Shown: in pieces, positions 2,496-51,915 of the stretch
Layout: each line of letters starts with the position of its first letter
Numbering within the stretch: position 1 is the first letter of the stretch
The notes under the pieces: model-generated
Told to the model about the DNA's origin: nothing
Databases searched by the model: none
What the model saw: only the letters and a program-made list of their open reading frames with translations
Program-made: the position numbers and the translations under genes
Source: a virus
Lineage: Duplodnaviria; Caudoviricetes
Length of the DNA: 64,000 bases
IMG/VR virus record: IMGVR_UViG_2908446538_000001
Coordinates: 9,053 to 73,052 of that record
Direction: 5' to 3' (one strand)

Positions 2496-2699
2496 CTACT
2501 CGGCGTCCTGCTCAAGCCAAGCAATCTTCGGCGCCTCTTTGCGAAGCGCGAAGTACTCGACTTGAACCTTGGCGCTGTTGATCATCTTGCCGCCGAGATT
2601 GGCGAGTTCGGCCGCTTCGGCCGGCTTCAGCTCGCCGGCCTGCAATTGGCGGAAAACGTCGGCCAAGTTCTTGCGTAATTCTTCAGCGTTCTTCATCTT
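2496..2699 (-). CDS. Small helical phage protein (MKNAEELRKNLADVF...)
   Basis: Within ORF 2496-2750; start moved to the ATG overlapping the end of the upstream gene. Confidence 0.6.
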   Translation of the reverse strand, partial: KMKNAEELRKNLADVFRQLQAGELKPAEAAELANLGGKMINSAKVQVEYFALRKEAPKIAWLEQDAE

Positions 2700-3234
2700 G
2701 ACTACCTTTAATGAGCCGCCGGAGCAGCATGTGAGCTCGTTTTGCTTCAATTAATATTTTCGGGATATTCGATTTGTTCAGACTTGGCGAGTACTGCCTG
2801 ATGTGAGCGATGACTACAGGGTCAGGCAGGGAGTCCCTGTAGTTTTTCGCCTTCTGCTGAACAAGCGCTCTGTTCCGTTTTCGGCTCTCCCTTTGCTGCT
2901 CGGCAAGCCTTTCCTTGTTGGTGGCCCGATATTGCTTTCTATCCCTCTTAGGCGCTGGCTTGCTCGGAGAGTCAGGCTTAAGCCGATACCTCTCTTTATA
3001 CTCAGCAAGCTTTCCTGGATTTTTAGCGCGCCATTCCGCAGCAATATCGTTTTTCGATTTGCGATATTCGGGATCGGACATTCTTTGTTTGCGCTGGGCG
3101 GCCTCGACCAAATTGCAGCACGTTCTGCACGAAGATCTCAGGCGAGATCCGTTCTTCCGGTAGTCTGACGCTAGCTTAGGAAGGCGGCATATTGAGCAAA
3201 TCCTTGTCTCGATTTTCAATTGATTGCTCTCCAC
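2683..3234 (-). CDS. Basic phage protein with N-terminal CxxC...CxxC zinc-finger-like motif
   Basis: CSIC...CRTC followed by Lys/Arg-rich helical repeats. Confidence 0.6.
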   Translation of the reverse strand: MESNQLKIETRICSICRLPKLASDYRKNGSRLRSSCRTCCNLVEAAQRKQRMSDPEYRKSKNDIAAEWRAKNPGKLAEYKERYRLKPDSPSKPAPKRDRKQYRATNKERLAEQQRESRKRNRALVQQKAKNYRDSLPDPVVIAHIRQYSPSLNKSNIPKILIEAKRAHMLLRRLIKGSQDEER

Positions 3235-3552
3235 TCAATTCAACAATGCCGCCTCATAGAAGCGGCATCAGTAAATCTGTGGGTGCTTCATCTCCACCAC
3301 GCGCATCGCCCGATTCATATCTCTAGTCGGCGTCACACATTTCGTGGACGGTGTTCTTCGCCGACCGGCTTGCGTGGTTTCGCGTACTCACATCTGATGA
3401 GCACGGCCAGTTCCAGAGCTGGCGTGGAGATCGAATTTATTGCTCGCACTGTGCCCATTGCTGGGGATTGATCTGCGAGGTTCCCGTGCTGTTAAAGAGC
3501 GGCGGGCTGTGAGGCCCTTCGCAGTCCCTCGTAAGTCGCTGCGATGGATTAA

Positions 3553-3597
3553 ATCTACAACCAAAAGTTACAGCTTGCAAGCTTTTTGGTTGTAGAT
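3553..3597. promoter_or_regulatory. Putative OL operator region of the leftward early promoter
   Basis: Inverted repeat ATCTACAACCAAAA...TTTTGGTTGTAGAT; same GGTTGTAG half-site occurs between cI and cro. Confidence 0.6.
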
Positions 3598-3697
3598 ATT
3601 TCGATTTAAAGTTGTCGGTGGGTTCTGTCATGGTTGTAGGTCCGAATCCCAGGCATGAAAAAGCCCGCACTTGGCGGGCTCTGGTGACTCTCGGCTG

Positions 3698-4321
3698 TCA
3701 GTCGGTAATGGGGGGATACTTGCCGCTCACCGAGTCCCTGTAAACGATCTCGCTGAATAGCCTGGGGCCGTCGCGCATCGTGACCATGGCTTGCTTGGCT
3801 TCTTCCTTCGTTTCGAATGGGCCGGCACCCACAGCTAGGCCAATCATTGAAACGACCGGAAGCCCGCTACTGGTAATGGCTTCAATGGTTCGCTGCTGCT
3901 CTTCTTCGTCACGGCAGGCAGTTGATGCGACCCACCCATTTTTAAGGCGCGGGGCGGCTACTGGCTCAACATCAGCGCCGCAGTGCTTGCATTTGATGGC
4001 CGCGCATTTGATCGTCTCGGCACAGTAAGGGCAGGCGCGATCACCGGATACGACAAGGCCCTGCGAACTTTTTTCGGCTGGGCTTTCTGTGTTTGCTGAG
4101 GAAGCCCACACCAAGGCTGCAACCCAGCCCAGGAATGTCCACCCCAAGAGCAGGTTCACCAGAAAGATCGAGGTGAAGTTGACGTGCTTGCGATTCGAAG
4201 CAACGAACGTAGGCAGGAAATAGATGACAAAGGCAGCCACAAGAAGAACAAAGCCAGCCCAAGGGCTTCCACTATCCATATCGTAAACCTGATCCATTGA
4301 ATTGAGCTCGCACTCTACCAT
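3698..4321 (-). CDS. Superinfection immunity (T4 Imm-like) membrane protein fused to zinc ribbon and a C-terminal domain
   Basis: IYFLPTFVA...IFLVNLLLGWTFLGWVAALVWA is the Imm signature; CPYC...CKHC zinc ribbon. Confidence 0.85.
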   Translation of the reverse strand: MVECELNSMDQVYDMDSGSPWAGFVLLVAAFVIYFLPTFVASNRKHVNFTSIFLVNLLLGWTFLGWVAALVWASSANTESPAEKSSQGLVVSGDRACPYCAETIKCAAIKCKHCGADVEPVAAPRLKNGWVASTACRDEEEQQRTIEAITSSGLPVVSMIGLAVGAGPFETKEEAKQAMVTMRDGPRLFSEIVYRDSVSGKYPPITD

Positions 4322-4402
4322 TCGTGGCGTACGGCCACCATTGGAAGGCAGGGAAGGGTAGGCGCAAGAAGCCCGGCCCAGTTGAAGGCCAGCAATTCGT
4401 TT

Positions 4403-4729
4403 TCAGAGGGAAGTTGCGATCGCCCGGGCGAGTTGGGCGTCTGACATCAGCGGCGGTGCGGCGTTGGAGCGGTAGTATCTGGAGGCTTGCTCAAACTGCG
4501 CGCCGCGGATCTCGCCATCCGAACCAATGAACGCCAGAGCGTCGGTCTTCGCCGATTTGAAAACCTTTGGCGGCTCGGTCGTGAGGGATGTGGTCGCCCC
4601 AACCAAAATGGTTGGCGCGGAGATTGTGAGAAATATCGCGGCAGCGATAGGGTTGGCGCCATCACCTGATACGGCCTGCGTGCTGAACGATGCCAGTAGG
4701 GCTATCGCCAATGTCTTCCATGACTCCAT
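4403..4729 (-). CDS. DUF2388-like exported protein
   Basis: Signal peptide; DALAFIGSDGEIRGAQFEQA and SDAQLARAI motifs. Confidence 0.75.
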   Translation of the reverse strand: MESWKTLAIALLASFSTQAVSGDGANPIAAAIFLTISAPTILVGATTSLTTEPPKVFKSAKTDALAFIGSDGEIRGAQFEQASRYYRSNAAPPLMSDAQLARAIATSL

Positions 4730-4836
4730 GCTTCATTGCTTCCATTGCGATCTAAGGGCGCCACCATAGCAGGGTAGTGGCTCGCCAGAAACAAGAAGCC
4801 CGACGCAGGGCGGGCTCTATGTAACCGCGTCAGAAA

Positions 4837-5268
4837 CTAACGATGCTTGTTATTGTGTTTATGCTTGTTGTTGCCTTTGTGCTTCTTACCATCCGATCGA
4901 TGATTGCTCTCATCATCCGCCAGGTTGTTTCCAAGCGCGCCACCCGCGGCACCGCCCAGACCTGCGCCGATCGTCGAGCCAGTCGTGCCGCCGAGGCGGT
5001 TACCGATGAGGGAGCCACCAGCCGAGCCGATACCGCCACCTAATGCGGCTTCAGCTCTGTTTCCTCTCTGAGCGCCGACAGCACTGCCCGCAGCACCACC
5101 TACGCCTGCGCCTACCGCCGCGCCAGTTGAGCCTCCCAGCTGTTGGCCTACGATATTGCCAAGTGCACCACCAACGCCGCCTCCAAGGCCGGCTGTGCCG
5201 TCTCCGGCAGCCATTGCTCCTTGCGAAATGAGTACGCCCAAGAATAGGGCGGGCAGTGTCATTTTCAT
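4837..5268 (-). CDS. Glycine-zipper (YmgG-like) exported/membrane protein
   Basis: Signal peptide followed by GGxxGGxxG repeats and His/Lys-rich tail. Confidence 0.85.
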   Translation of the reverse strand: MKMTLPALFLGVLISQGAMAAGDGTAGLGGGVGGALGNIVGQQLGGSTGAAVGAGVGGAAGSAVGAQRGNRAEAALGGGIGSAGGSLIGNRLGGTTGSTIGAGLGGAAGGALGNNLADDESNHRSDGKKHKGNNKHKHNNKHR

Positions 5269-7493: not shown

Positions 7494-7509
7494 AGCCGGC
7501 TCCTTTTGG

Positions 7510-8232
7510 TTAGCGGGCGTACATTCCCCACCAGAACACGTGCCCTAGGATGCCGATCTGCTCATCCTGCATCTGCTGGAAGCTATAGTCCTCATCCGGG
7601 TGATCGTCGCGGTTGAAGCTTCGCAACCTGATCCCTGATGGAAGCCTGAAAACCTGTTTAACACGCATCTGGCCATTATGGTTTATGGCGTATAGGTCGC
7701 CATCGATGATGTCGCCCAGGCTCGTTTTGCCCAAGTCGATGCCCACCGTTGCGCCATCGCGCAACACCGGGGTCATGCTGTTGCCACGGACCGTCACGCA
7801 CTTGGCGTTGCTGAACTGAACGCCGTTTTCGCGAAGGTTCTTCTTGCGGAAGCGAAGGCTTTCCCCCTCGTCCTCCTGAATGACAAAGCGGCCCGATCCT
7901 GCGGCCAGTTCGACTTCGCGCAGAAATGGAACCTCAACCTCGTCATCGTCGAGCGGGGTCTTTTCGTCCCAGCCATCAATAGCCTTCATGGAGCTGGCAT
8001 TCGAGTCAGGCGCGGTTCGGCCCGTTTCACCAGGACCGCCATCTATTAAGTAGCCCATCGAAGTGCCGAGGGCCTCAGCCAGGTCGCCCAGCTTGCTATT
8101 CCGTGGCGTAGAGACGCCAGCCTCCCACTTCTGGACAGCCTGAGGGCTCAGCCCCAAACGACGGGCCAACTCCGACTGGCTAAGGCCTGCCGCCTCTCTT
8201 TTTTGCGCGATGCGCTCACCGATATTTTTCAT
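7510..8232 (-). CDS. cI: CI-like repressor (XRE HTH + S24 autopeptidase)
   Basis: HTH LSQSELARRLGLSPQAVQKWE; AAGSG cleavage loop, GNSM catalytic Ser, VK catalytic Lys; start moved to MKNIGERI. Confidence 0.95.
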   Translation of the reverse strand: MKNIGERIAQKREAAGLSQSELARRLGLSPQAVQKWEAGVSTPRNSKLGDLAEALGTSMGYLIDGGPGETGRTAPDSNASSMKAIDGWDEKTPLDDDEVEVPFLREVELAAGSGRFVIQEDEGESLRFRKKNLRENGVQFSNAKCVTVRGNSMTPVLRDGATVGIDLGKTSLGDIIDGDLYAINHNGQMRVKQVFRLPSGIRLRSFNRDDHPDEDYSFQQMQDEQIGILGHVFWWGMYAR

Positions 8233-45625: not shown

Positions 45626-45736
45626 TTAGACATAGGAACCGCGAAAGCCACGCTCTACATGGCTTTCGCATCGATCAAGCCCATACTGCTGCATCATTGG
45701 CGTGTGGGAAGACAGATCGGACGTGTTTTTACTCAT
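45626..45736 (-). pseudogene. mutS: 5' fragment of mutS (18 native codons) fused to prophage sequence; right attachment junction near 45683
   Basis: MSKNTSDLSSHTPMMQQY is the Pseudomonas MutS N-terminus; it diverges (GLDRC...) and stops after 36 aa; orientation fits mutS divergent from the tailocin-cinA-recA side. Confidence 0.85.
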
Positions 45737-46111
45737 TGGATAGTAGGCAAATTCGTTGAAAGTGATGGGGCAAAGGGGGCGCTTGGTCCAGTGTCGATCA
45801 GTTGCGCAGCGCAGGTTTCCAAACGACGCAGGCCGATGTGGGAGCTGTCGAGCCCTAGCGAGGCTGCGAAGGGATCGCCGCGCTGTACCGGCAGGCCGCA
45901 GCCCCTGCATCGCTGAAGTTCGAAAGCTCAACATCGTGCCCAATCGTGGTCGCTTAACTGATCGGCATCGGGCGCTTGGCCCAGCATTTTTGCGATGGGC
46001 GCAAGGTTAACACGCGAAGTCGGGGCTTCGCAGGTCGCAAACGGTTAGGTAAAACACAAAAAAGGGCGGTGCATTTAACTAAATGCGCCGCCCCTTTCTT
46101 TCTTCCGGCTG

Positions 46112-46387
46112 TTACTGAAGGTTACCGGGCGAATCCAACACCTTCACCACATCATCCACCACCGCCTTCACCATCTCCTGCAAGTAATGCGACGCCCAGG
46201 CGTAACGGTCCGTCTCCTTGGTCATCGCCGCATCTTCTGCGAGCTGCTTGGCAACGTGGAGGAGGTCGGAGGCGTGGTGCAAGGCTTCGTGCAGGGAAAC
46301 ACCGCTGTTGACGCGGAATAGAGGTTGGTCGGAGTGGAAGGAGAAGGGGGTGACGCCGAGGGTGGTTAGATCTTGCGCAGCGTTCAT
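46112..46387 (-). CDS. DUF3077 family protein
   Basis: TLGVTPFSFH..QPLFRVNSGVSL.EAL.HASDLL...A.ASHYL.EM.KAV. Confidence 0.85.
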   Translation of the reverse strand: MNAAQDLTTLGVTPFSFHSDQPLFRVNSGVSLHEALHHASDLLHVAKQLAEDAAMTKETDRYAWASHYLQEMVKAVVDDVVKVLDSPGNLQ

Positions 46388-46461
46388 AAAACACCTCCGA
46401 GCGCGGAGGAAATGAACCGGGAAGGATGACGCCGTTTGGTGCGGTAACTGTAGAAGCACAT
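46384..46461 (-). CDS. 25 aa leader peptide (icd-like) coupled to DUF3077
   Basis: Its AAGGA SD lies in the C4 target b2; stop overlaps DUF3077 ATG. Confidence 0.6.
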   Translation of the reverse strand: MCFYSYRTKRRHPSRFISSALGGVL

Positions 46462-46513
46462 AAGTGAAAATTCCTTGATTTGAGGAACTGCCACGAACCT
46501 TCTCACAGGTTTG

Positions 46514-46594
46514 GGTGGCAGCTGTGCGCAGGGTGAGAAACCGGCAATCAAGGCAACCGGTAGACCCGAAGGTCTCCCACGCACAGCCGCCATA
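46514..46594 (-). ncRNA. c4: C4 antisense RNA
   Basis: Closing stem GGCGGCTGTGCG/CGCACAGCTGCC, AGACC-TTCG-GGTCT hairpin, ACCGG/CCGGT hairpin; a' TTCTCAC and b' CCTTGATT have complementary targets on both sides. Confidence 0.85.
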
Positions 46595-47028
46595 AAACGA
46601 TATCGCAGACGAAAAAAAACGCCGCGATAGGGTTCTTGGGCGCTTTGCGCCTTGATTTGCTCGGGTTCTCACACCCGGTCGCTGAATTTGCAGCGACCGG
46701 GGGAGGTTAGCGTGATGGTGGGGTGGGTGCAACTGGGAAACGGCGGACGTCTTTACTTTGCCAGTTGTCAGCGAACCCATGCAGGAGGATATGCCTAGGA
46801 AATGATCACCTAAAGATGTCAGCCCCCTGGCTAGTGGCTTAAAGGTGAAGGCAGCTTTCGGCCCAGAAGCAGAAGTTTGCGAGTGGCGGCTGAGGGCTGA
46901 CCACCGCCTGTCAATACAACAGAAATAGGCCCGGAGCTGGCGTCTAATGTCCAGATGGTAGAGAGTGATCTCTAGCGGCGGAAACGTAGTGGCACACTAG
47001 TCTAATAGCTGTATTGACGTGAGGGGAC

Positions 47029-48750
47029 ATGGACGTGGCACCGACATCTACAGAGTTAGTTAAGTTGTACGAGTGCGGAGAATTCGCCAGCCAAATGGCC
47101 CACCGGTTCGGATTGGGGAGAAGTGCAGAAACTCATTTGGTCGAGGAACTGTGCATAACACTGCACAACTCAGGAGCTATTGACCTATTAGCCCTTGTTG
47201 AAGATCGCACCCTGCAGGAGCTTCCAGGAACCGAGTTCTTTATGGCGTCATATTTTTTTTGCCGTCTTTTGCCGGAGTTAGACGCGACCCCTGAGCGAAT
47301 GATGCGCTGCGTTGATGGATTGGTAACTCGCGGAGGAAATGACGGTGCAGCCAATGAACCCAATGCAGCATTCCGCAAATGGTGCGCGAGCGTTCCTCTG
47401 CGTGCTCTTGAAGTTATCGCCGCAGCGCACGAAGGTAATGAGCTCGCCATCCAACATCTCGCCTTCGCATTAGAGGCTATCAGTAACCTCAGCGAAGCGC
47501 GTCGAATGGCAATTGAATATGAGGACATTCGTCGCCAAGCCGCCATCTCTGCCCTAGGACGTATCGATCACAAAGGTTCAGAGGAGTGTGGCGAGACGTT
47601 TGCAGTTTTCCATTCACTACTTGATGGCAGCATTGGCGATGCTACAAGAGCAAGTGTGCTGCATGCGTCGATGGAAATTCTGAATCGCGGCCAAGATGTT
47701 TCGTCTGCTGATGCGAACTCGCTAATAAGTCGGATAGTGAGCGAGCCCGGTCAGTTCACTATACATCAGTGTGCACGTGCACTCTGGTCGTGCCGACAAG
47801 CACTTACTCAAGATATCGTTTCTTTCTTGCTGGGTGCATTGGAGCACTTGGACTCGGCAAATAAAGGAACGATTGAGGAGGTAGATCTAGGCCTTCATGT
47901 GCTATTGGAACTCGGGTTTGATGAATCGGCCGTTTCTTTCGTAACTATGCTTCTCTCACGTCCAGATAATGAACTAGAACTTGAGGCTTTTGATAGCTTT
48001 ACTCACAATCTGCTATCCGGCTCTCCGGGTCTTATTAGCCGAGTCGTGGTGAAGTGGCTTCAGCTGGGCTCGCCACAACTGTGTAACGGACTTGCCAAGG
48101 CTATAAAGGGCCCCGGACTGGATGGTGTGCCACTGAGCCTTCAGGCTGATGACCTAGCTCTCCCTCCCTCCACACAATTGTTTATCTGTCGAAAAGCATT
48201 GGGTTGGTTCTTCTTTAAACCGACTACGGGAGCATCCGTCCTAGTCTCTGTATTGCGAATTTGCGATTCAGACACAGCTCAAGAGGTACAAAACCTGTTG
48301 GTTAATCCATTGCTTCAAAACTATGGAGGTGTGCGGGAATATCTGGAAAACCTTGCTACGGAGGATGCAGCGACCAAAGCTGTTTCTGGGGCTCTTGCTC
48401 AAAATTTGGCTTATCTCGATGCAAAGCGTTCAGTTCCACTTCTTGTTGAGCTGCAACCAACCGAGCACCATCGCCGTATTGAGCGCTTGCGTATATCAGA
48501 TCAGATGAGGGAAGCGTATAAAGGGGCGGAGAGTGATTCTGTATTCTTGGGACTGGTGAGCCGCTCCGTGCTGCTCTATGGCAATCGCTCACTTAGTTTT
48601 ATCGACGATGGCCAAGACGGGCTTCGCCACGTGGAGGTCGATCTTCAGTCCCATGGTATTTCCTACGAGATGCCGCGAATGGAGGTCGTTGATCCCATTG
48701 GCCTTGACTACATCCTCCGCGTCTTCCGCAATGAGAGGATGGAAAAATGA
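47029..48750 (+). CDS. Large alpha-helical (HEAT/ARM-like) protein, gene A of candidate defence operon
   Basis: 573 aa, Leu/Ala/Glu-rich, GAGGGG RBS, lower GC than host genes; no enzyme motif recognised. Confidence 0.75.
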   Translation: MDVAPTSTELVKLYECGEFASQMAHRFGLGRSAETHLVEELCITLHNSGAIDLLALVEDRTLQELPGTEFFMASYFFCRLLPELDATPERMMRCVDGLVTRGGNDGAANEPNAAFRKWCASVPLRALEVIAAAHEGNELAIQHLAFALEAISNLSEARRMAIEYEDIRRQAAISALGRIDHKGSEECGETFAVFHSLLDGSIGDATRASVLHASMEILNRGQDVSSADANSLISRIVSEPGQFTIHQCARALWSCRQALTQDIVSFLLGALEHLDSANKGTIEEVDLGLHVLLELGFDESAVSFVTMLLSRPDNELELEAFDSFTHNLLSGSPGLISRVVVKWLQLGSPQLCNGLAKAIKGPGLDGVPLSLQADDLALPPSTQLFICRKALGWFFFKPTTGASVLVSVLRICDSDTAQEVQNLLVNPLLQNYGGVREYLENLATEDAATKAVSGALAQNLAYLDAKRSVPLLVELQPTEHHRRIERLRISDQMREAYKGAESDSVFLGLVSRSVLLYGNRSLSFIDDGQDGLRHVEVDLQSHGISYEMPRMEVVDPIGLDYILRVFRNERMEK

Positions 48751-50465
48751 AGCTAATGATTCGGGACTATTTGGCTTCTCTGAAGGAAAGGGATGAGCTG
48801 GATGCGGTGTTACCAGACTTATTGAGTGAATTAGGTTTTAACGTCTATTCACGTCCTCAAAGAGGAACAAGCCAACTTGGTGTCGATATTGCGGCCATTG
48901 GAAAGGACGATGATGGTGAGAAGAAGCTCTTTCTGTTTTCCGTCAAACAGGGTGACCTGACCCGTCAAGACTGGGACGGCAATCCGCAGGCTCTACGATC
49001 ATCATTAGATGAGATCTTAGATGCGTACATCCCCCACAGAGTTCCGACTAGATACAAAGATCTGAAGATTGTTATCTGTCTCGCTTTTGGAGGTGATGTA
49101 AACGAGCAAGTACGAGAGAAGTTAACAGGATTTATCGACAAAAACACTTCGACGAAAATTGCTTTTGATGAATGGAATGGCGATAAGATTGCAGGAATGA
49201 TTTTAAGAGGAATTCTCAGGGAGGAAATCCTTCCAAAGCCATTGCGTAGCAGCTTTCAGAAAGCTGTCGCTATGGTCGATGAATCAGACGTCTCTTATGA
49301 GCACTTTAGTCGCCTTGCTGGAAACCTATGTAAGGCTGGCATGGTGTCGGGAAAATCCCGTATACGCTCTGCCCGACAGTTAAATATCTGTCTGTGGATC
49401 CTGTTTGTTTGGGCCCGTAGTGCAGGCAACATCGAGTCGCCATATCGTGCAAGCGAGCTTGCACTTTTGACGACCTGGGAATTGCTCCGGCCTACCCTTG
49501 GTAGCAATGGGCGGGAGTTGAAAGCACTCAGCATCGTTGTTCGTCAGTTGATCGAGCTACATCTTACTATTTCTATGGAGTTCATCGAGCAACGTGTGTT
49601 GCCGTATGCCGAGATCCCCCATGGGATATCAATGGCCACTGGGTCCAGAAGTTCGTTGGATGTGAACTTAGCGCTATTTGAAGTACTGGCTCGCATTGGC
49701 TTGGCAGGGCTATGGCTCTACTGGCTAGGAGAGCGGGGCGATGAGGCATACAAAGATCAGATAAGCCACCGCGTCGCACAACTCACTCATACGGGACTAG
49801 AGCTAATTAAAAATAACCCCATACTATTTCTGCCGATAACAGATCCGCAAGGAACCAGTATTGCCCTTTTCCTTCAGCTTTGGCTGGTTAGTGGGCTTGA
49901 TGCGACGGGAGTAACTTCTTGGCTTCAGGAAATGGCAAAACGCCTAACGTTCACCATTCACACAAGGGGTCGTTATACCACCTCTCTCTCAGACTACCGT
50001 GATCTTGCTGACCACCCTCGTGATAGATCCGACAACTATTTCAAAGAGGCGACGGCGGGCAGCACAGTCGTTCCCCTGATCGCCGTTTGGCTGCATGCCC
50101 TTGGTGCAACAGAGGCCGTCGAGGCTCTAAGCCGTCTTGCACGGAAAGAGTTAAAACACTGTACGTTACAACTTTGGTTGCCTGATGCCTCGTCGGAAGA
50201 GAAATTCTATGTAGGTGACAACTCTCATGGACGAGCAATTTGTGGATTGCCTTTGGATAAAGGGGGACAGAAGTTACTCGCAACTATCGCAGAGGCATGC
50301 AGTATGAATGCAGACTTGCAGAATTTATCGCCTGTCAAATCAGGCTTCTGGCCGGTCGTAATGGTCGCCTGCCACCATTATGATTTGCCGGTCCCTCCTG
50401 GGTTCTGGATCAATTCATTATTGGATCCAGAGTCGAAACCAGAACTGGAGGCCGATCAAATTTGA
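48747..50465 (+). CDS. Protein with N-terminal restriction-endonuclease-like (Mrr/PD-(D/E)XK) domain, gene B of candidate defence operon
   Basis: ELDAVLPDLLSELGF...GTSQLGVDIAA...LFLFSVKQGD; ATGA overlap with gene A. Confidence 0.7.
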   Translation: MKLMIRDYLASLKERDELDAVLPDLLSELGFNVYSRPQRGTSQLGVDIAAIGKDDDGEKKLFLFSVKQGDLTRQDWDGNPQALRSSLDEILDAYIPHRVPTRYKDLKIVICLAFGGDVNEQVREKLTGFIDKNTSTKIAFDEWNGDKIAGMILRGILREEILPKPLRSSFQKAVAMVDESDVSYEHFSRLAGNLCKAGMVSGKSRIRSARQLNICLWILFVWARSAGNIESPYRASELALLTTWELLRPTLGSNGRELKALSIVVRQLIELHLTISMEFIEQRVLPYAEIPHGISMATGSRSSLDVNLALFEVLARIGLAGLWLYWLGERGDEAYKDQISHRVAQLTHTGLELIKNNPILFLPITDPQGTSIALFLQLWLVSGLDATGVTSWLQEMAKRLTFTIHTRGRYTTSLSDYRDLADHPRDRSDNYFKEATAGSTVVPLIAVWLHALGATEAVEALSRLARKELKHCTLQLWLPDASSEEKFYVGDNSHGRAICGLPLDKGGQKLLATIAEACSMNADLQNLSPVKSGFWPVVMVACHHYDLPVPPGFWINSLLDPESKPELEADQI

Positions 50466-50608
50466 TTTCGATTGGTCTTGAATTCAGTTTTCGGCCAACA
50501 CTGTGGTTTGTCCGCTCCTGGCCGATTTCTGCCTGATATGATTGACCGACATCGACCCACTCAGGCCAGTCGTGACAGGTAGATCCCTGCCATGAAAGTG
50601 CGAACTGT

Positions 50609-50980
50609 ATGGCACCCAAATGTGTGGAGAAAATCGCTGTGCGAGTAAGGAATGAGCAAAGCATTTGTGAATGGCAGGGGGTTACCCCTGATCGACCACA
50701 ATCTGGGTCAAAAATCGGCATAGCGTTGGGGACTCTGGGGCTTCAGCCCATAAATGGGTTAAGGGTTAATCCGGATAACGGTACGAACGGTTGGTACCTG
50801 TGGTGCGGTATGGAGTGGTCTGAGGCTGACGATTTTTTTTCACCCCTGCATGTGGACCACATCACTGACTATCTACCGGAAGTTGTCGGATATCTTGATT
50901 TGCCGCCAGGCTATCGTTTTTACATCGACGGCAATAATTTTGAAGACGTTTGGCTTGACCCAGAGTTGGTACGCACTTGA
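50609..50980 (+). CDS. Imm33-like immunity protein (start may be GTG 50639)
   Basis: PINGLR...GWYLWCG...DDFFSPLHV.H...YL.LPPGYRF. Confidence 0.75.
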   Translation: MAPKCVEKIAVRVRNEQSICEWQGVTPDRPQSGSKIGIALGTLGLQPINGLRVNPDNGTNGWYLWCGMEWSEADDFFSPLHVDHITDYLPEVVGYLDLPPGYRFYIDGNNFEDVWLDPELVRT

Positions 50981-51116
50981 CTCGTCCGGTGAATTGACCT
51001 GAGTTTTCATAGACACATTGAATGAGTACTTCTGGTCGATAGCAGCCTCTCAGATTTTGAAATTGACGAGTGCCCAGGCCCCCATAGCTTACTGACGCGT
51101 TGGTTAACGGTTTCTA

Positions 51117-51139
51117 AATTTGCATAAATTATGCAAATT
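51117..51139. promoter_or_regulatory. Palindromic operator upstream of prtR
   Basis: AATTTGCATA-AAT-TATGCAAATT perfect 10-bp inverted repeat. Confidence 0.7.
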
Positions 51140-51180
51140 AGCATTTGCCAACCCCAAAATCCCCCGTCATCATCCCCCTT

Positions 51181-51915
51181 ATGCAAAAACGCAACGTTTC
51201 AACCGTCTTAAGAGAACTCCTAGACCGCGACCGGATCTCCCCCACGGAGCTTCACCGGCGTACTGGCGTGCCTCAATCCACACTCTCGCGAATCCTCAGC
51301 GGCAAGATCGTTGATCCGTCGGACAAGCATATCTCGCGCATCGCCGAGTACTTCCGTGTCAGCACCGACCACTTGCGCGGGCGCGCGGCGGTGGGGGCTT
51401 TGCGGGATGACGGGCGTGACCCGATGCATTCGGAACTCAAGGACATAAGCCTGTGGGACGACGACACGCCCGTTAATGATGACGAGGTGTCGATCCCCTT
51501 TCTGCGTGAGGTTGAATTGGCTGCTGGATCAGGAAGATTCGTCATCGAGGAAAGCGAGAAGGCCAGCTTGCGTTTCGGCAAGCGCAGCCTGCGGCATAAC
51601 GGTGTGCAGTTTGACCAGGCCAAGTGTGTAACGGTGCGCGGCAACAGTATGTTGCCGGTGCTGCGCGACGGCGCGACGGTCGGGGTGAACGCAGGCAAGA
51701 GTGGCATTGGCGATATCGTCGATGGCGACTTGTATGCCATCAACCACAATGGCCAGCTGCGGGTGAAACAGCTCTACCGCCTGCCTTCGGGGATTCGCCT
51801 GCGCAGTTTCAATCGCGATGAACACCCGGATGAGGACTACAGCTTCCAGGATATCCAGGATGAGCAGATCAGCATCCTCGGTCATGTGTTCTGGTGGGGC
51901 ATGTACGCCCGTTAA
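51181..51915 (+). CDS. prtR: PrtR-like LexA/CI-family repressor
   Basis: HTH + S24 domain (AAGSG, GNSM, RVK) at head of tailocin cluster. Confidence 0.93.
   Translation: MQKRNVSTVLRELLDRDRISPTELHRRTGVPQSTLSRILSGKIVDPSDKHISRIAEYFRVSTDHLRGRAAVGALRDDGRDPMHSELKDISLWDDDTPVNDDEVSIPFLREVELAAGSGRFVIEESEKASLRFGKRSLRHNGVQFDQAKCVTVRGNSMLPVLRDGATVGVNAGKSGIGDIVDGDLYAINHNGQLRVKQLYRLPSGIRLRSFNRDEHPDEDYSFQDIQDEQISILGHVFWWGMYAR

What the first reader, a model, noticed from the sequence alone, without database searches (positions are those of the whole stretch)
47029..50465. Two-gene candidate anti-phage system: large helical protein + restriction-endonuclease-like protein
Seen: 573 aa and 572 aa genes with ATGA coupling, lower GC than host genes, inserted in the mutS-tailocin hotspot, with no methyltransferase, ATPase or transposase nearby. 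Gene B begins with an Mrr/PD-(D/E)XK-like core (E..., GVD, then SVK where E/Q-x-K is usual) followed by ~400 aa of helical sequence; gene A looks like a helical-repeat scaffold with a distinct C-terminal segment. Known: helical sensor plus nuclease effector is a common defence architecture. Inference: A senses a phage protein and activates B. I cannot match it confidently to a named system; two-gene systems such as Aditi or Olokun must be excluded.
Basis: partly seen in the sequence, partly recalled or inferred. Interest (0 to 1): 0.85.

Follow-up and report, generated by a model that had tools for sequence, protein, structure and literature searches.

The report
Olokun anti-phage defence gene pair
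The two overlapping genes are an ordinary copy of Olokun, a named and tested bacterial anti-phage system made of a helical-repeat protein and a DNA-cutting enzyme, carried on a small foreign island next to a tailocin cluster.

Summary
Two ORFs of 573 aa (47029-48750) and 572 aa (48747-50465) overlap by ATGA. They have low GC (0.495; GC3 0.48, against 0.74-0.84 in neighbouring tail genes). No methylase, ATPase or transposase lies beside them.

The system is not unnamed. PADLOC's profiles match both proteins end to end: OloA at E 3.6e-97 and OloB at E 3.9e-197.

- OloB residues 1-161 form a PD-(D/E)XK nuclease fold closest to the FokI cleavage domain (Z 10.4). E14, E17, D47 and K67 are invariant, and Ser65 stands where the second acidic residue usually sits. 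About 400 helical residues follow.
- OloA is an ARM/HEAT solenoid with a small C-terminal beta/helix module.

A 2025 preprint purified a Pseudomonas-type Olokun as a 2:2 OloA-OloB complex that cuts some phage DNAs in vitro.

Compared with sister genomes, the pair lies on a ~5 kb island (about 46089-51120) at the mutS-tailocin junction, beside a ~57 kb prophage. Close homologues sit in unrelated, partly mobile contexts.

Verdict: a real defence system of an already known kind. Interest is low. The scan noted the same stretch once before, in an overlapping window of this genome.

The parts
47029..48750 (+). oloA: 573 aa ARM/HEAT-type alpha-solenoid (residues ~1-470), followed by long helices and a small C-terminal beta-sheet/helix module (~505-570)
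   Evidence: PADLOC OloA PDLC03925, E 3.6e-97, residues 10-572 against profile 14-595/596. AF2 pLDDT 86.1. Foldseek matches importin-alpha, PP2A PR65 and CRM1, probability 1.00, E 8e-5 to 1e-3. Pfam gives only a sub-threshold HEAT_2 match.
48747..50465 (+). oloB: 572 aa nuclease effector. Its start overlaps the oloA stop (ATGA)
   Evidence: PADLOC OloB PDLC03926, E 3.9e-197, residues 1-557 against profile 1-553/556. More than 1273 homologues. AF2 pLDDT 85.5, pTM 0.81.
48747..49229 (+). OloB residues 1-161: PD-(D/E)XK nuclease domain of the FokI-cleavage-domain type, with E14/E17 (before and in helix 1), D47 (start of strand 2) and S65-V-K67 (strand 3)
   Evidence: VIA-align: FokI 2fok_A Z 10.4, 146 aligned, model 1-161. 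N.BspD6I Z 8.9. AF1548 Z 9.3. R.BspD6I small subunit Z 8.4. Hna Z 8.0. Top Foldseek hit is MspJI. Invariant residues. This is the lowest-entropy part of the protein.
49230..50462 (+). OloB residues ~162-572: all-helical domain, the likely OloA-binding and regulatory part
   Evidence: AF2 secondary structure. Only generic helical-repeat or toroid matches, all below the Z that is meaningful for helical proteins. The OloA contact is taken from the preprint's AlphaFold3 model, not tested here.
46089..51120 (.). ~5.0 kb low-GC island that carries the system. It is missing from this junction in the sister genomes compared (DUF3077 copies occur elsewhere in them) and holds DUF3077, oloA, oloB and an Imm33-like gene
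   Evidence: In G031, G005, G025 and G002 the sequences matching window 45684-46088 and 51118 onwards lie 0-1 kb apart, without the middle. Island GC is 0.507. No flanking repeats or recombinase were found.
46112..46780 (-). DUF3077 protein gene, co-resident cargo of the island; not an Olokun component
   Evidence: Pfam PF11275, E 2.8e-34. No PADLOC match. Paralogous copies occur elsewhere in this genome and in relatives.
50609..50980 (+). Imm33-like (polymorphic-toxin immunity family) gene, co-resident cargo; not an Olokun component
   Evidence: Pfam PF24719, E 2e-37. No PADLOC match.
51145..51915 (+). Context only: HTH + S24 peptidase repressor that opens the P2-like R-type tailocin cluster (holin, baseplate V/J/I, tube)
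   Evidence: Pfam Peptidase_S24 and HTH_3. Downstream Phage_holin_3_5, Phage_base_V, Baseplate_J, Tail_P2_I and Phage_tube.

Best explanation
The pair is an intact Olokun anti-phage defence system (OloA + OloB), acquired horizontally and sitting on a ~5 kb island at the mutS-tailocin junction of a Pseudomonas fluorescens-group chromosome.

OloB is the effector. Its N-terminal 160 residues form a metal-dependent PD-(D/E)XK nuclease domain of the FokI cleavage-domain type, followed by a ~400-residue helical domain. OloA is an ARM/HEAT (adaptin-like) solenoid.

From published biochemistry on a Pseudomonas-type Olokun, two OloA and two OloB form a 2:2 complex. OloA holds OloB's helical domain, and the two nuclease domains lie side by side. 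As in FokI, that arrangement would allow double-strand cuts.

The complex most likely protects by cutting incoming phage DNA while sparing host DNA. OloA would act as the regulatory or specificity subunit.

Shown here: identity, domain folds, conserved catalytic residues, operon coupling, foreign origin and mobility. Taken from the literature: complex stoichiometry, phage-DNA cleavage and defence. Inferred: the role of OloA, and what cue separates phage from self.
For: - Identity: full-length PADLOC matches to OloA (E 3.6e-97) and OloB (E 3.9e-197). The genome holds one copy.
- Operon: the same A-then-B order recurs in four other genomes (G013, G059, one P. fluorescens, one P. chlororaphis; a second P. 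chlororaphis record, L023, repeats it), with the 4-bp overlap seen in the called genes and implied by the ORF frames in G013.
- Nuclease: OloB 1-161 aligns with the FokI cleavage domain (Z 10.4, 146 residues), BspD6I nickase and small subunit, AF1548 and Hna. MspJI is the top Foldseek hit. E14, E17, D19, D47 and K67 are invariant in 25 homologues, and this domain is the most conserved part.
- OloA: an ARM/HEAT solenoid.
- Literature (10.1101/2025.07.10.664194): PfOlokun is ~278 kDa by mass photometry, modelled as a 2:2 complex with adjacent nuclease domains. It degrades T7, SECphi17 and SPO1 DNA and nicks plasmid, but does not degrade E. coli genomic or plasmid DNA. Every operon in that panel defended against at least one phage. 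PMC10121019 credits the system's description to its ref. 7, which it lists under the title 'expanded arsenal of immune...'. From my own knowledge that is Millman et al. 2022.
- Foreign origin: GC3 is 0.48 against 0.74-0.84, and the island is absent at this junction in sister genomes.
- Mobility: full-length OloB matches (both with OloA) occur in 2 of 60 other genomes of the genus, plus three weak partial matches to the OloB profile, at other loci. One sits in an integrase/resolvase island.
Against: - No experiment exists on this copy.
- The strand-3 motif is S-x-K rather than (D/E/Q)-x-K, so the full set of metal ligands is not obvious from sequence.
- In the preprint, the OloB active-site mutant lost complex formation, so loss of activity was not cleanly separated from loss of assembly.
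- In vitro activity needed 1 uM protein and only partly matched the in vivo defence pattern.
- The preprint describes OloA as contacting an 'N-terminal helical domain' of OloB. In this model the helical domain is C-terminal to the nuclease.
- No promoter-like or terminator-like site was found around the pair with the simple scan.
Confidence: 0.93

Rival explanations
1. Same system, different trigger logic. OloA is a sensor that binds a specific phage protein and only then releases or activates the OloB nuclease, possibly with abortive-infection cutting of host DNA as well.
For: - Solenoid proteins are typical protein-binding scaffolds.
Faster change is expected of a surface that tracks phage proteins.
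- In vitro cleavage needed high protein concentration and only partly matched in vivo defence, which the authors read as a possible need for activation.
Against: - The purified complex cuts several phage DNAs with no phage protein present, and spares E. coli DNA.
- Faster divergence is also the norm for helical repeats under weak constraint.
- No escaper or trigger data exist.
Confidence: 0.3
2. A decayed or domesticated relic: the genes are Olokun homologues but no longer defend, for example because the S-x-K site is inactive and the pair is kept for another role.
For: Ser replaces the second acidic residue of the canonical motif. Olokun fragments exist in other genomes of the genus (G054, G030, G021).
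Against: - Both ORFs are full length against the profiles, with no stops.
- S65 is a family-wide feature, at least 90% conserved in homologues.
- All other invariant family residues are kept.
- Translational coupling is intact.
Confidence: 0.04
3. Not a defence system: a 'chemotaxis protein', as many database records name OloB homologues, or a new unnamed system.
For: NCBI and UniRef names for homologues read 'chemotaxis protein' or 'hypothetical protein'. Pfam and NCBIfam have no model for either protein.
Against: No chemotaxis-related domain matched in Pfam at E up to 1. The N-terminal fold is a nuclease. There are strong full-length matches to a defence family that has been tested experimentally.
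Confidence: 0.01

Closest known systems
Olokun defence system (OloA/OloB). PMC10121019 credits its description to its ref. 7; biochemistry of 'PfOlokun' in Ragucci et al., bioRxiv 10.1101/2025.07.10.664194
   Same: Both genes match the family profiles over their whole length. Same order, same strand, overlapping stop and start. Same domain content: an adaptin/HEAT-like OloA and a PD-(D/E)XK OloB. The closest named homologues come from Pseudomonas fluorescens, P. farris and P. chlororaphis (OloB 93% and 86%; OloA 85% and 76%).
   Different: Nothing of substance. This copy sits at the mutS-tailocin junction, whereas the other copies examined sit elsewhere. The preprint's wording places OloB's helical domain N-terminal, whereas here the nuclease is N-terminal.
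FokI and BspD6I type IIS cleavage domains
   Same: Best structural matches to OloB 1-161 (Z 10.4, 8.9, 8.4). They are non-specific PD-(D/E)XK cleavage modules that need pairing for double-strand cuts. This fits the side-by-side OloB nuclease domains modelled in the 2:2 complex.
   Different: 7-10% sequence identity. OloB has no DNA-recognition domain of the type IIS kind and no methyltransferase partner. It has S-x-K where FokI has D-x-K (FokI residues from memory).
MspJI / Mrr-type modification-dependent nucleases
   Same: Top Foldseek match for the nuclease domain. From memory, MspJI also carries a non-acidic residue (Q-x-K) at the strand-3 position.
   Different: Foldseek E is only 0.02. 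No Pfam Mrr_cat match. No SRA-like or winged-helix DNA-reading domain. OloB needs a separate solenoid partner.
Hachiman HamA, Hna, Lamassu LmuA (defence nucleases with partner proteins)
   Same: A PD-(D/E)XK-type effector controlled by a large partner. Weak structural matches: Hna Z 8.0; HamA and LmuA among the Foldseek rows.
   Different: Those partners are helicases or SMC ATPases. OloA and OloB have no conserved Walker A motif (checked against the OloB alignment).
Aditi (two genes of unknown function)
   Same: A two-gene defence system without Pfam domains.
   Different: No PADLOC Aditi model matched either protein at E up to 1.

Membership tests
Olokun | A protein matching the OloA profile | tested here: met
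   PDLC03925, E 3.6e-97, 325 bits, residues 10-572 against profile 14-595/596
Olokun | A protein matching the OloB profile | tested here: met
   PDLC03926, E 3.9e-197, 655 bits, residues 1-557 against profile 1-553/556. The same match was found by six-frame genome search.
Olokun | The two genes adjacent on one strand as one operon | tested here: met
   4-bp ATGA overlap at 48747-50. The same A-then-B arrangement is seen in L007, L008, L021, L022 and L023.
Olokun | OloB carries a PD-(D/E)XK nuclease domain | tested here: met
   Model residues 1-161 against the FokI cleavage domain, Z 10.4, rmsd 4.0, 146 aligned. BspD6I, AF1548 and Hna also match. D47 and K67 are invariant. The middle acidic residue is Ser throughout the family.
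Olokun | OloA is an adaptin/HEAT-like helical repeat protein | tested here: met
   AF2 all-alpha solenoid. Foldseek matches importin-alpha, PR65 and CRM1 at probability 1.00. Sub-threshold Pfam HEAT_2.
Olokun | 2:2 OloA-OloB complex | not testable with these tools
   Reported for PfOlokun by mass photometry and AlphaFold3. No multimer prediction is available here.
Olokun | Protection against phage infection | not testable with these tools
   Reported for tested operons in the literature. This copy is untested.
Aditi | Matches to the Aditi protein profiles | tested here: not met
   The PADLOC scan at E up to 1 returned only OloA and OloB.
Mrr-like restriction endonuclease (Pfam Mrr_cat) | Match to the Mrr catalytic domain profile | tested here: not met
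   No Pfam family matched OloB at E up to 1. The general PD-(D/E)XK fold is nevertheless shared.
Nuclease-NTPase systems in the strict sense (nuclease plus P-loop/helicase partner) | Conserved Walker A/B NTPase motifs in one component | tested here: not met
   No Walker A in OloA. The single pattern match in OloB (residues 197-204) lies in a variable helix and is not conserved in the alignment. The preprint's list of P-loop accessory proteins also omits Olokun.

The most novel reading that the evidence does not exclude
Olokun's nuclease may work with an unusual active site. Ser65 stands where PD-(D/E)XK enzymes place the second metal-binding acid, with the acid supplied from helix 1 (E14/E17). 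OloB's large helical domain keeps a set of invariant or near-invariant His/Cys residues (H423, H471, C518, C542, H544) and gave weak LanC-like toroid matches. It may be a ligand- or metal-binding sensor rather than a mere OloA dock. That would make OloB, not OloA, the sensing subunit.
Probability: 0.1. Interest if true: 0.4.

Novelty: already known. Interest (0 to 1): 0.1.

Why it matters
It matters little for discovery. Standard defence annotation (PADLOC, DefenseFinder) would label this pair Olokun automatically.

Its use is as annotation. The strain carries one Olokun copy on a ~5 kb foreign island at the mutS-tailocin junction, which also took up a ~57 kb prophage. That is a tidy example of this junction acting as a landing site for mobile cargo in the Pseudomonas fluorescens group.

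Olokun's trigger and self/non-self rule remain open. The conserved-residue map and domain boundaries given here (nuclease 1-161 with E14/E17, D47, S65, K67; helical domain 162-560; OloA C-terminal module 505-570) could guide mutagenesis, though any Olokun copy would serve equally well.

Tried and rejected
- Pfam and NCBIfam scans of both proteins gave nothing above threshold, only a sub-threshold HEAT_2 on OloA.
- Aditi and all other PADLOC models gave no match.
- Profile searches of the PDB sequences found no solved Olokun structure. For OloA there were only E>0.2 chance-level rows.
- Whole-model Foldseek of OloB gave no hit at E<=0.001. The domain-level answer came from VIA-align.
- LanC-like or alpha/alpha-toroid reading of the OloB C-terminal domain: nisin cyclase Z 9.5 and GCR2 Z 8.0 are below the level that is meaningful for helical proteins. 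Pfam gave no LANC_like hit. I left this as a lead only.
- The ESM Atlas search with OloB 160-572 returned only an unnamed cluster at 0.86.
- Walker A search: one chance match that is not conserved.
- Mobile-element ends for the island: no flanking direct or inverted repeats of note, and no recombinase in the island.
- The simple promoter/terminator scan found nothing useful between 46500 and 51100.
- The 2022 preprint version of the discovery paper (10.1101/2022.05.11.491447) does not contain the word Olokun in its text. The donor organism and phage panel of the original test could therefore not be read here.
- No supplementary tables were held for the 2025 preprint, so the PfOlokun accession and mutated residues are unknown to me.
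Full report
**Observation**

The two ORFs are exactly as described. One runs 47029-48750 (+, 573 aa) and the other 48747-50465 (+, 572 aa). The stop of the first overlaps the start of the second as ATGA. Each start is preceded by a purine-rich ribosome-binding site.

The pair has GC 0.495 and GC3 0.48. Neighbouring tail genes have GC3 of 0.74-0.84, and the window as a whole has GC 0.575.

Neighbour scans gave the following:
- Upstream: a lambda-like tail tip protein J, tail fibre, endolysin and Rz spanin.
- Just upstream, on the minus strand: a DUF3077 gene.
- Downstream: an Imm33-like gene, an HTH/S24 repressor and a P2-like contractile-tail cluster (holin, baseplate V/J/I, tube).

No methyltransferase, ATPase, integrase or transposase lies nearby.

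**What it is**

A scan against PADLOC's defence profiles settles identity. Gene A matches OloA (E 3.6e-97, residues 10-572 against profile 14-595 of 596). Gene B matches OloB (E 3.9e-197, residues 1-557 against profile 1-553 of 556). No other model matched at E up to 1.

Pfam and NCBIfam have no model for either protein. Databases call OloB homologues 'chemotaxis protein' or 'hypothetical'. That explains why a reader working from memory could not place it.

The genome holds one copy.

**Anatomy of OloB**

An alignment of 25 homologues (55-94% identical) shows invariant E14, E17, D19, G45-V46-D47 and K67. S65 is at least 90% conserved. The first 100 residues are the most conserved part of the protein.

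The AF2 model (pLDDT 85.5, pTM 0.81) gives helix-strand-strand-strand-helix-strand topology for residues 1-157. D47 sits at the start of strand 2 and S65-V-K67 on strand 3, which are the canonical PD-(D/E)XK positions. About 400 residues of helices follow.

An exhaustive structural comparison aligns residues 1-161 with several nuclease domains:
- the FokI cleavage domain (Z 10.4, 146 residues);
- N.BspD6I (Z 8.9);
- the BspD6I small subunit (Z 8.4);
- AF1548 (Z 9.3);
- the Hna nuclease domain (Z 8.0).

MspJI tops the Foldseek list.

The Ser is a family-wide trait, not a defect of this copy. The helical domain matches only generic repeats and toroids at uninformative Z values.

**Anatomy of OloA**

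The AF2 model (pLDDT 86.1) is an alpha-solenoid to about residue 470. Long helices follow, then a three-strand sheet plus helix at 510-568. The solenoid matches importin-alpha, PP2A PR65 and CRM1. This confirms the 'helical-repeat scaffold with a distinct C-terminal segment'.

Neither protein has a conserved Walker A motif. No solved structure of either family is detectable by sequence in the PDB.

**What is known about the system**

PMC10121019 credits Olokun's description to its reference 7, which it lists under the title 'expanded arsenal of immune...'. From my own knowledge that is Millman et al. 2022.

The only mechanistic work found is Ragucci et al., bioRxiv 10.1101/2025.07.10.664194. 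It reports the following:
- Purified 'PfOlokun' is ~278 kDa.
- It degrades T7, SECphi17 and SPO1 DNA and nicks plasmid.
- It does not degrade E. coli genomic or plasmid DNA.
- It is active only at 1 uM.
- An OloB active-site mutant lost complex formation.

The FokI and BspD6I resemblance found here fits that picture: a non-specific cleavage module that must pair to make double-strand breaks and is governed by another domain or subunit.

One discrepancy stands. The preprint's text calls OloB's helical domain N-terminal, whereas in this protein the nuclease is N-terminal.

**Mechanism**

Most likely (inference resting on the literature), a pre-assembled OloA2-OloB2 complex cuts incoming phage DNA. 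OloA acts as the regulatory or specificity subunit.

This stays open at about 0.3. The in vitro data also hint at a missing activator. Against it, cleavage occurs without any phage protein.

**Genomic setting**

mutS lies about 11 kb before the window, as an 864-aa open frame.

In sister genomes G031, G005 and G025, the mutS start is about 160 bp from the homologue of the tailocin repressor. Here, two elements lie in between:
- a ~57 kb prophage, whose tail and lysis genes fill the window up to about 45.1 kb;
- a ~5.0 kb low-GC island (about 46089-51120) carrying DUF3077, oloA, oloB and the Imm33-like gene.

G002 also has about 41 kb inserted at this junction. No repeats or recombinase mark the island.

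Elsewhere the pair sits in unrelated places:
- next to guaA (G059);
- near a PAAR-Ntox44 effector (G013);
- in an integrase/resolvase island beside purC in a P. fluorescens record (93% identical OloB);
- in a variable region with HNH and MazG-like genes in P. chlororaphis.

Full-length OloB matches (both with OloA) were found in 2 of the 60 other genomes sampled from the genus, plus three weak partial matches to the OloB profile. This patchy, mobile distribution is what a defence system shows.

**Verdict**

The functional class is right. The novelty is refuted, and the specific sensing model is unproven. This is an ordinary, intact member of a named and tested defence family. The same stretch was also noted by this scan in an overlapping window of the same genome.

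Noticed in passing
window 45684-46088, plus the genome upstream of the window (G000:C1:1544.7-1547.3 kb): The sequence that in sister genomes directly adjoins the mutS start is here separated from mutS by about 57 kb of prophage. mutS itself still reads as an 864-aa open frame about 11 kb before the window, so it does not look truncated. A 15-nt direct repeat (45777-45791 and 45970-45984) brackets about 190 bp that the closest relatives lack.
   Followed up: partly
window 46112-46780 (-): A DUF3077 gene shares the island with Olokun. Related DUF3077 sequences (72-90% identity at the DNA level) occur at several other loci in this genome and in most relatives, so it is a dispersed multi-copy family of unknown role.
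   Followed up: no
window 50609-50980 (+): An orphan Imm33-like (polymorphic-toxin immunity) gene lies just downstream of oloB, at the same low GC (0.49). No cognate toxin gene was seen in the island.
   Followed up: no
OloB residues ~200-560 (window 49345-50426): The helical domain gave weak LanC-like toroid matches (nisin cyclase Z 9.5 over 253 residues; GCR2 Z 8.0). It keeps invariant or near-invariant H423, H471, C518, C542 and H544. This may be a metal or ligand site, but the scores are below the level that is meaningful for helical folds.
   Followed up: partly
window 7508-7971 (G000:C1:1565983-1566446, - strand): A second stretch, 75% identical to part of the tailocin S24 repressor gene, lies inside the prophage. 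It is presumably the prophage's own repressor, which raises the possibility of cross-talk between prophage and tailocin induction.
   Followed up: no
L022/L023 (P. chlororaphis), 2550-4860: Upstream of the Olokun pair in P. chlororaphis lie an HNH-domain gene and a MazG-like gene followed by a 327-aa unknown. This may be another defence module in the same variable region.
   Followed up: no
Database names of OloB homologues: Many NCBI and UniRef records name OloB homologues 'chemotaxis protein'. No domain evidence supports that, and it looks like a propagated mis-annotation.
   Followed up: partly
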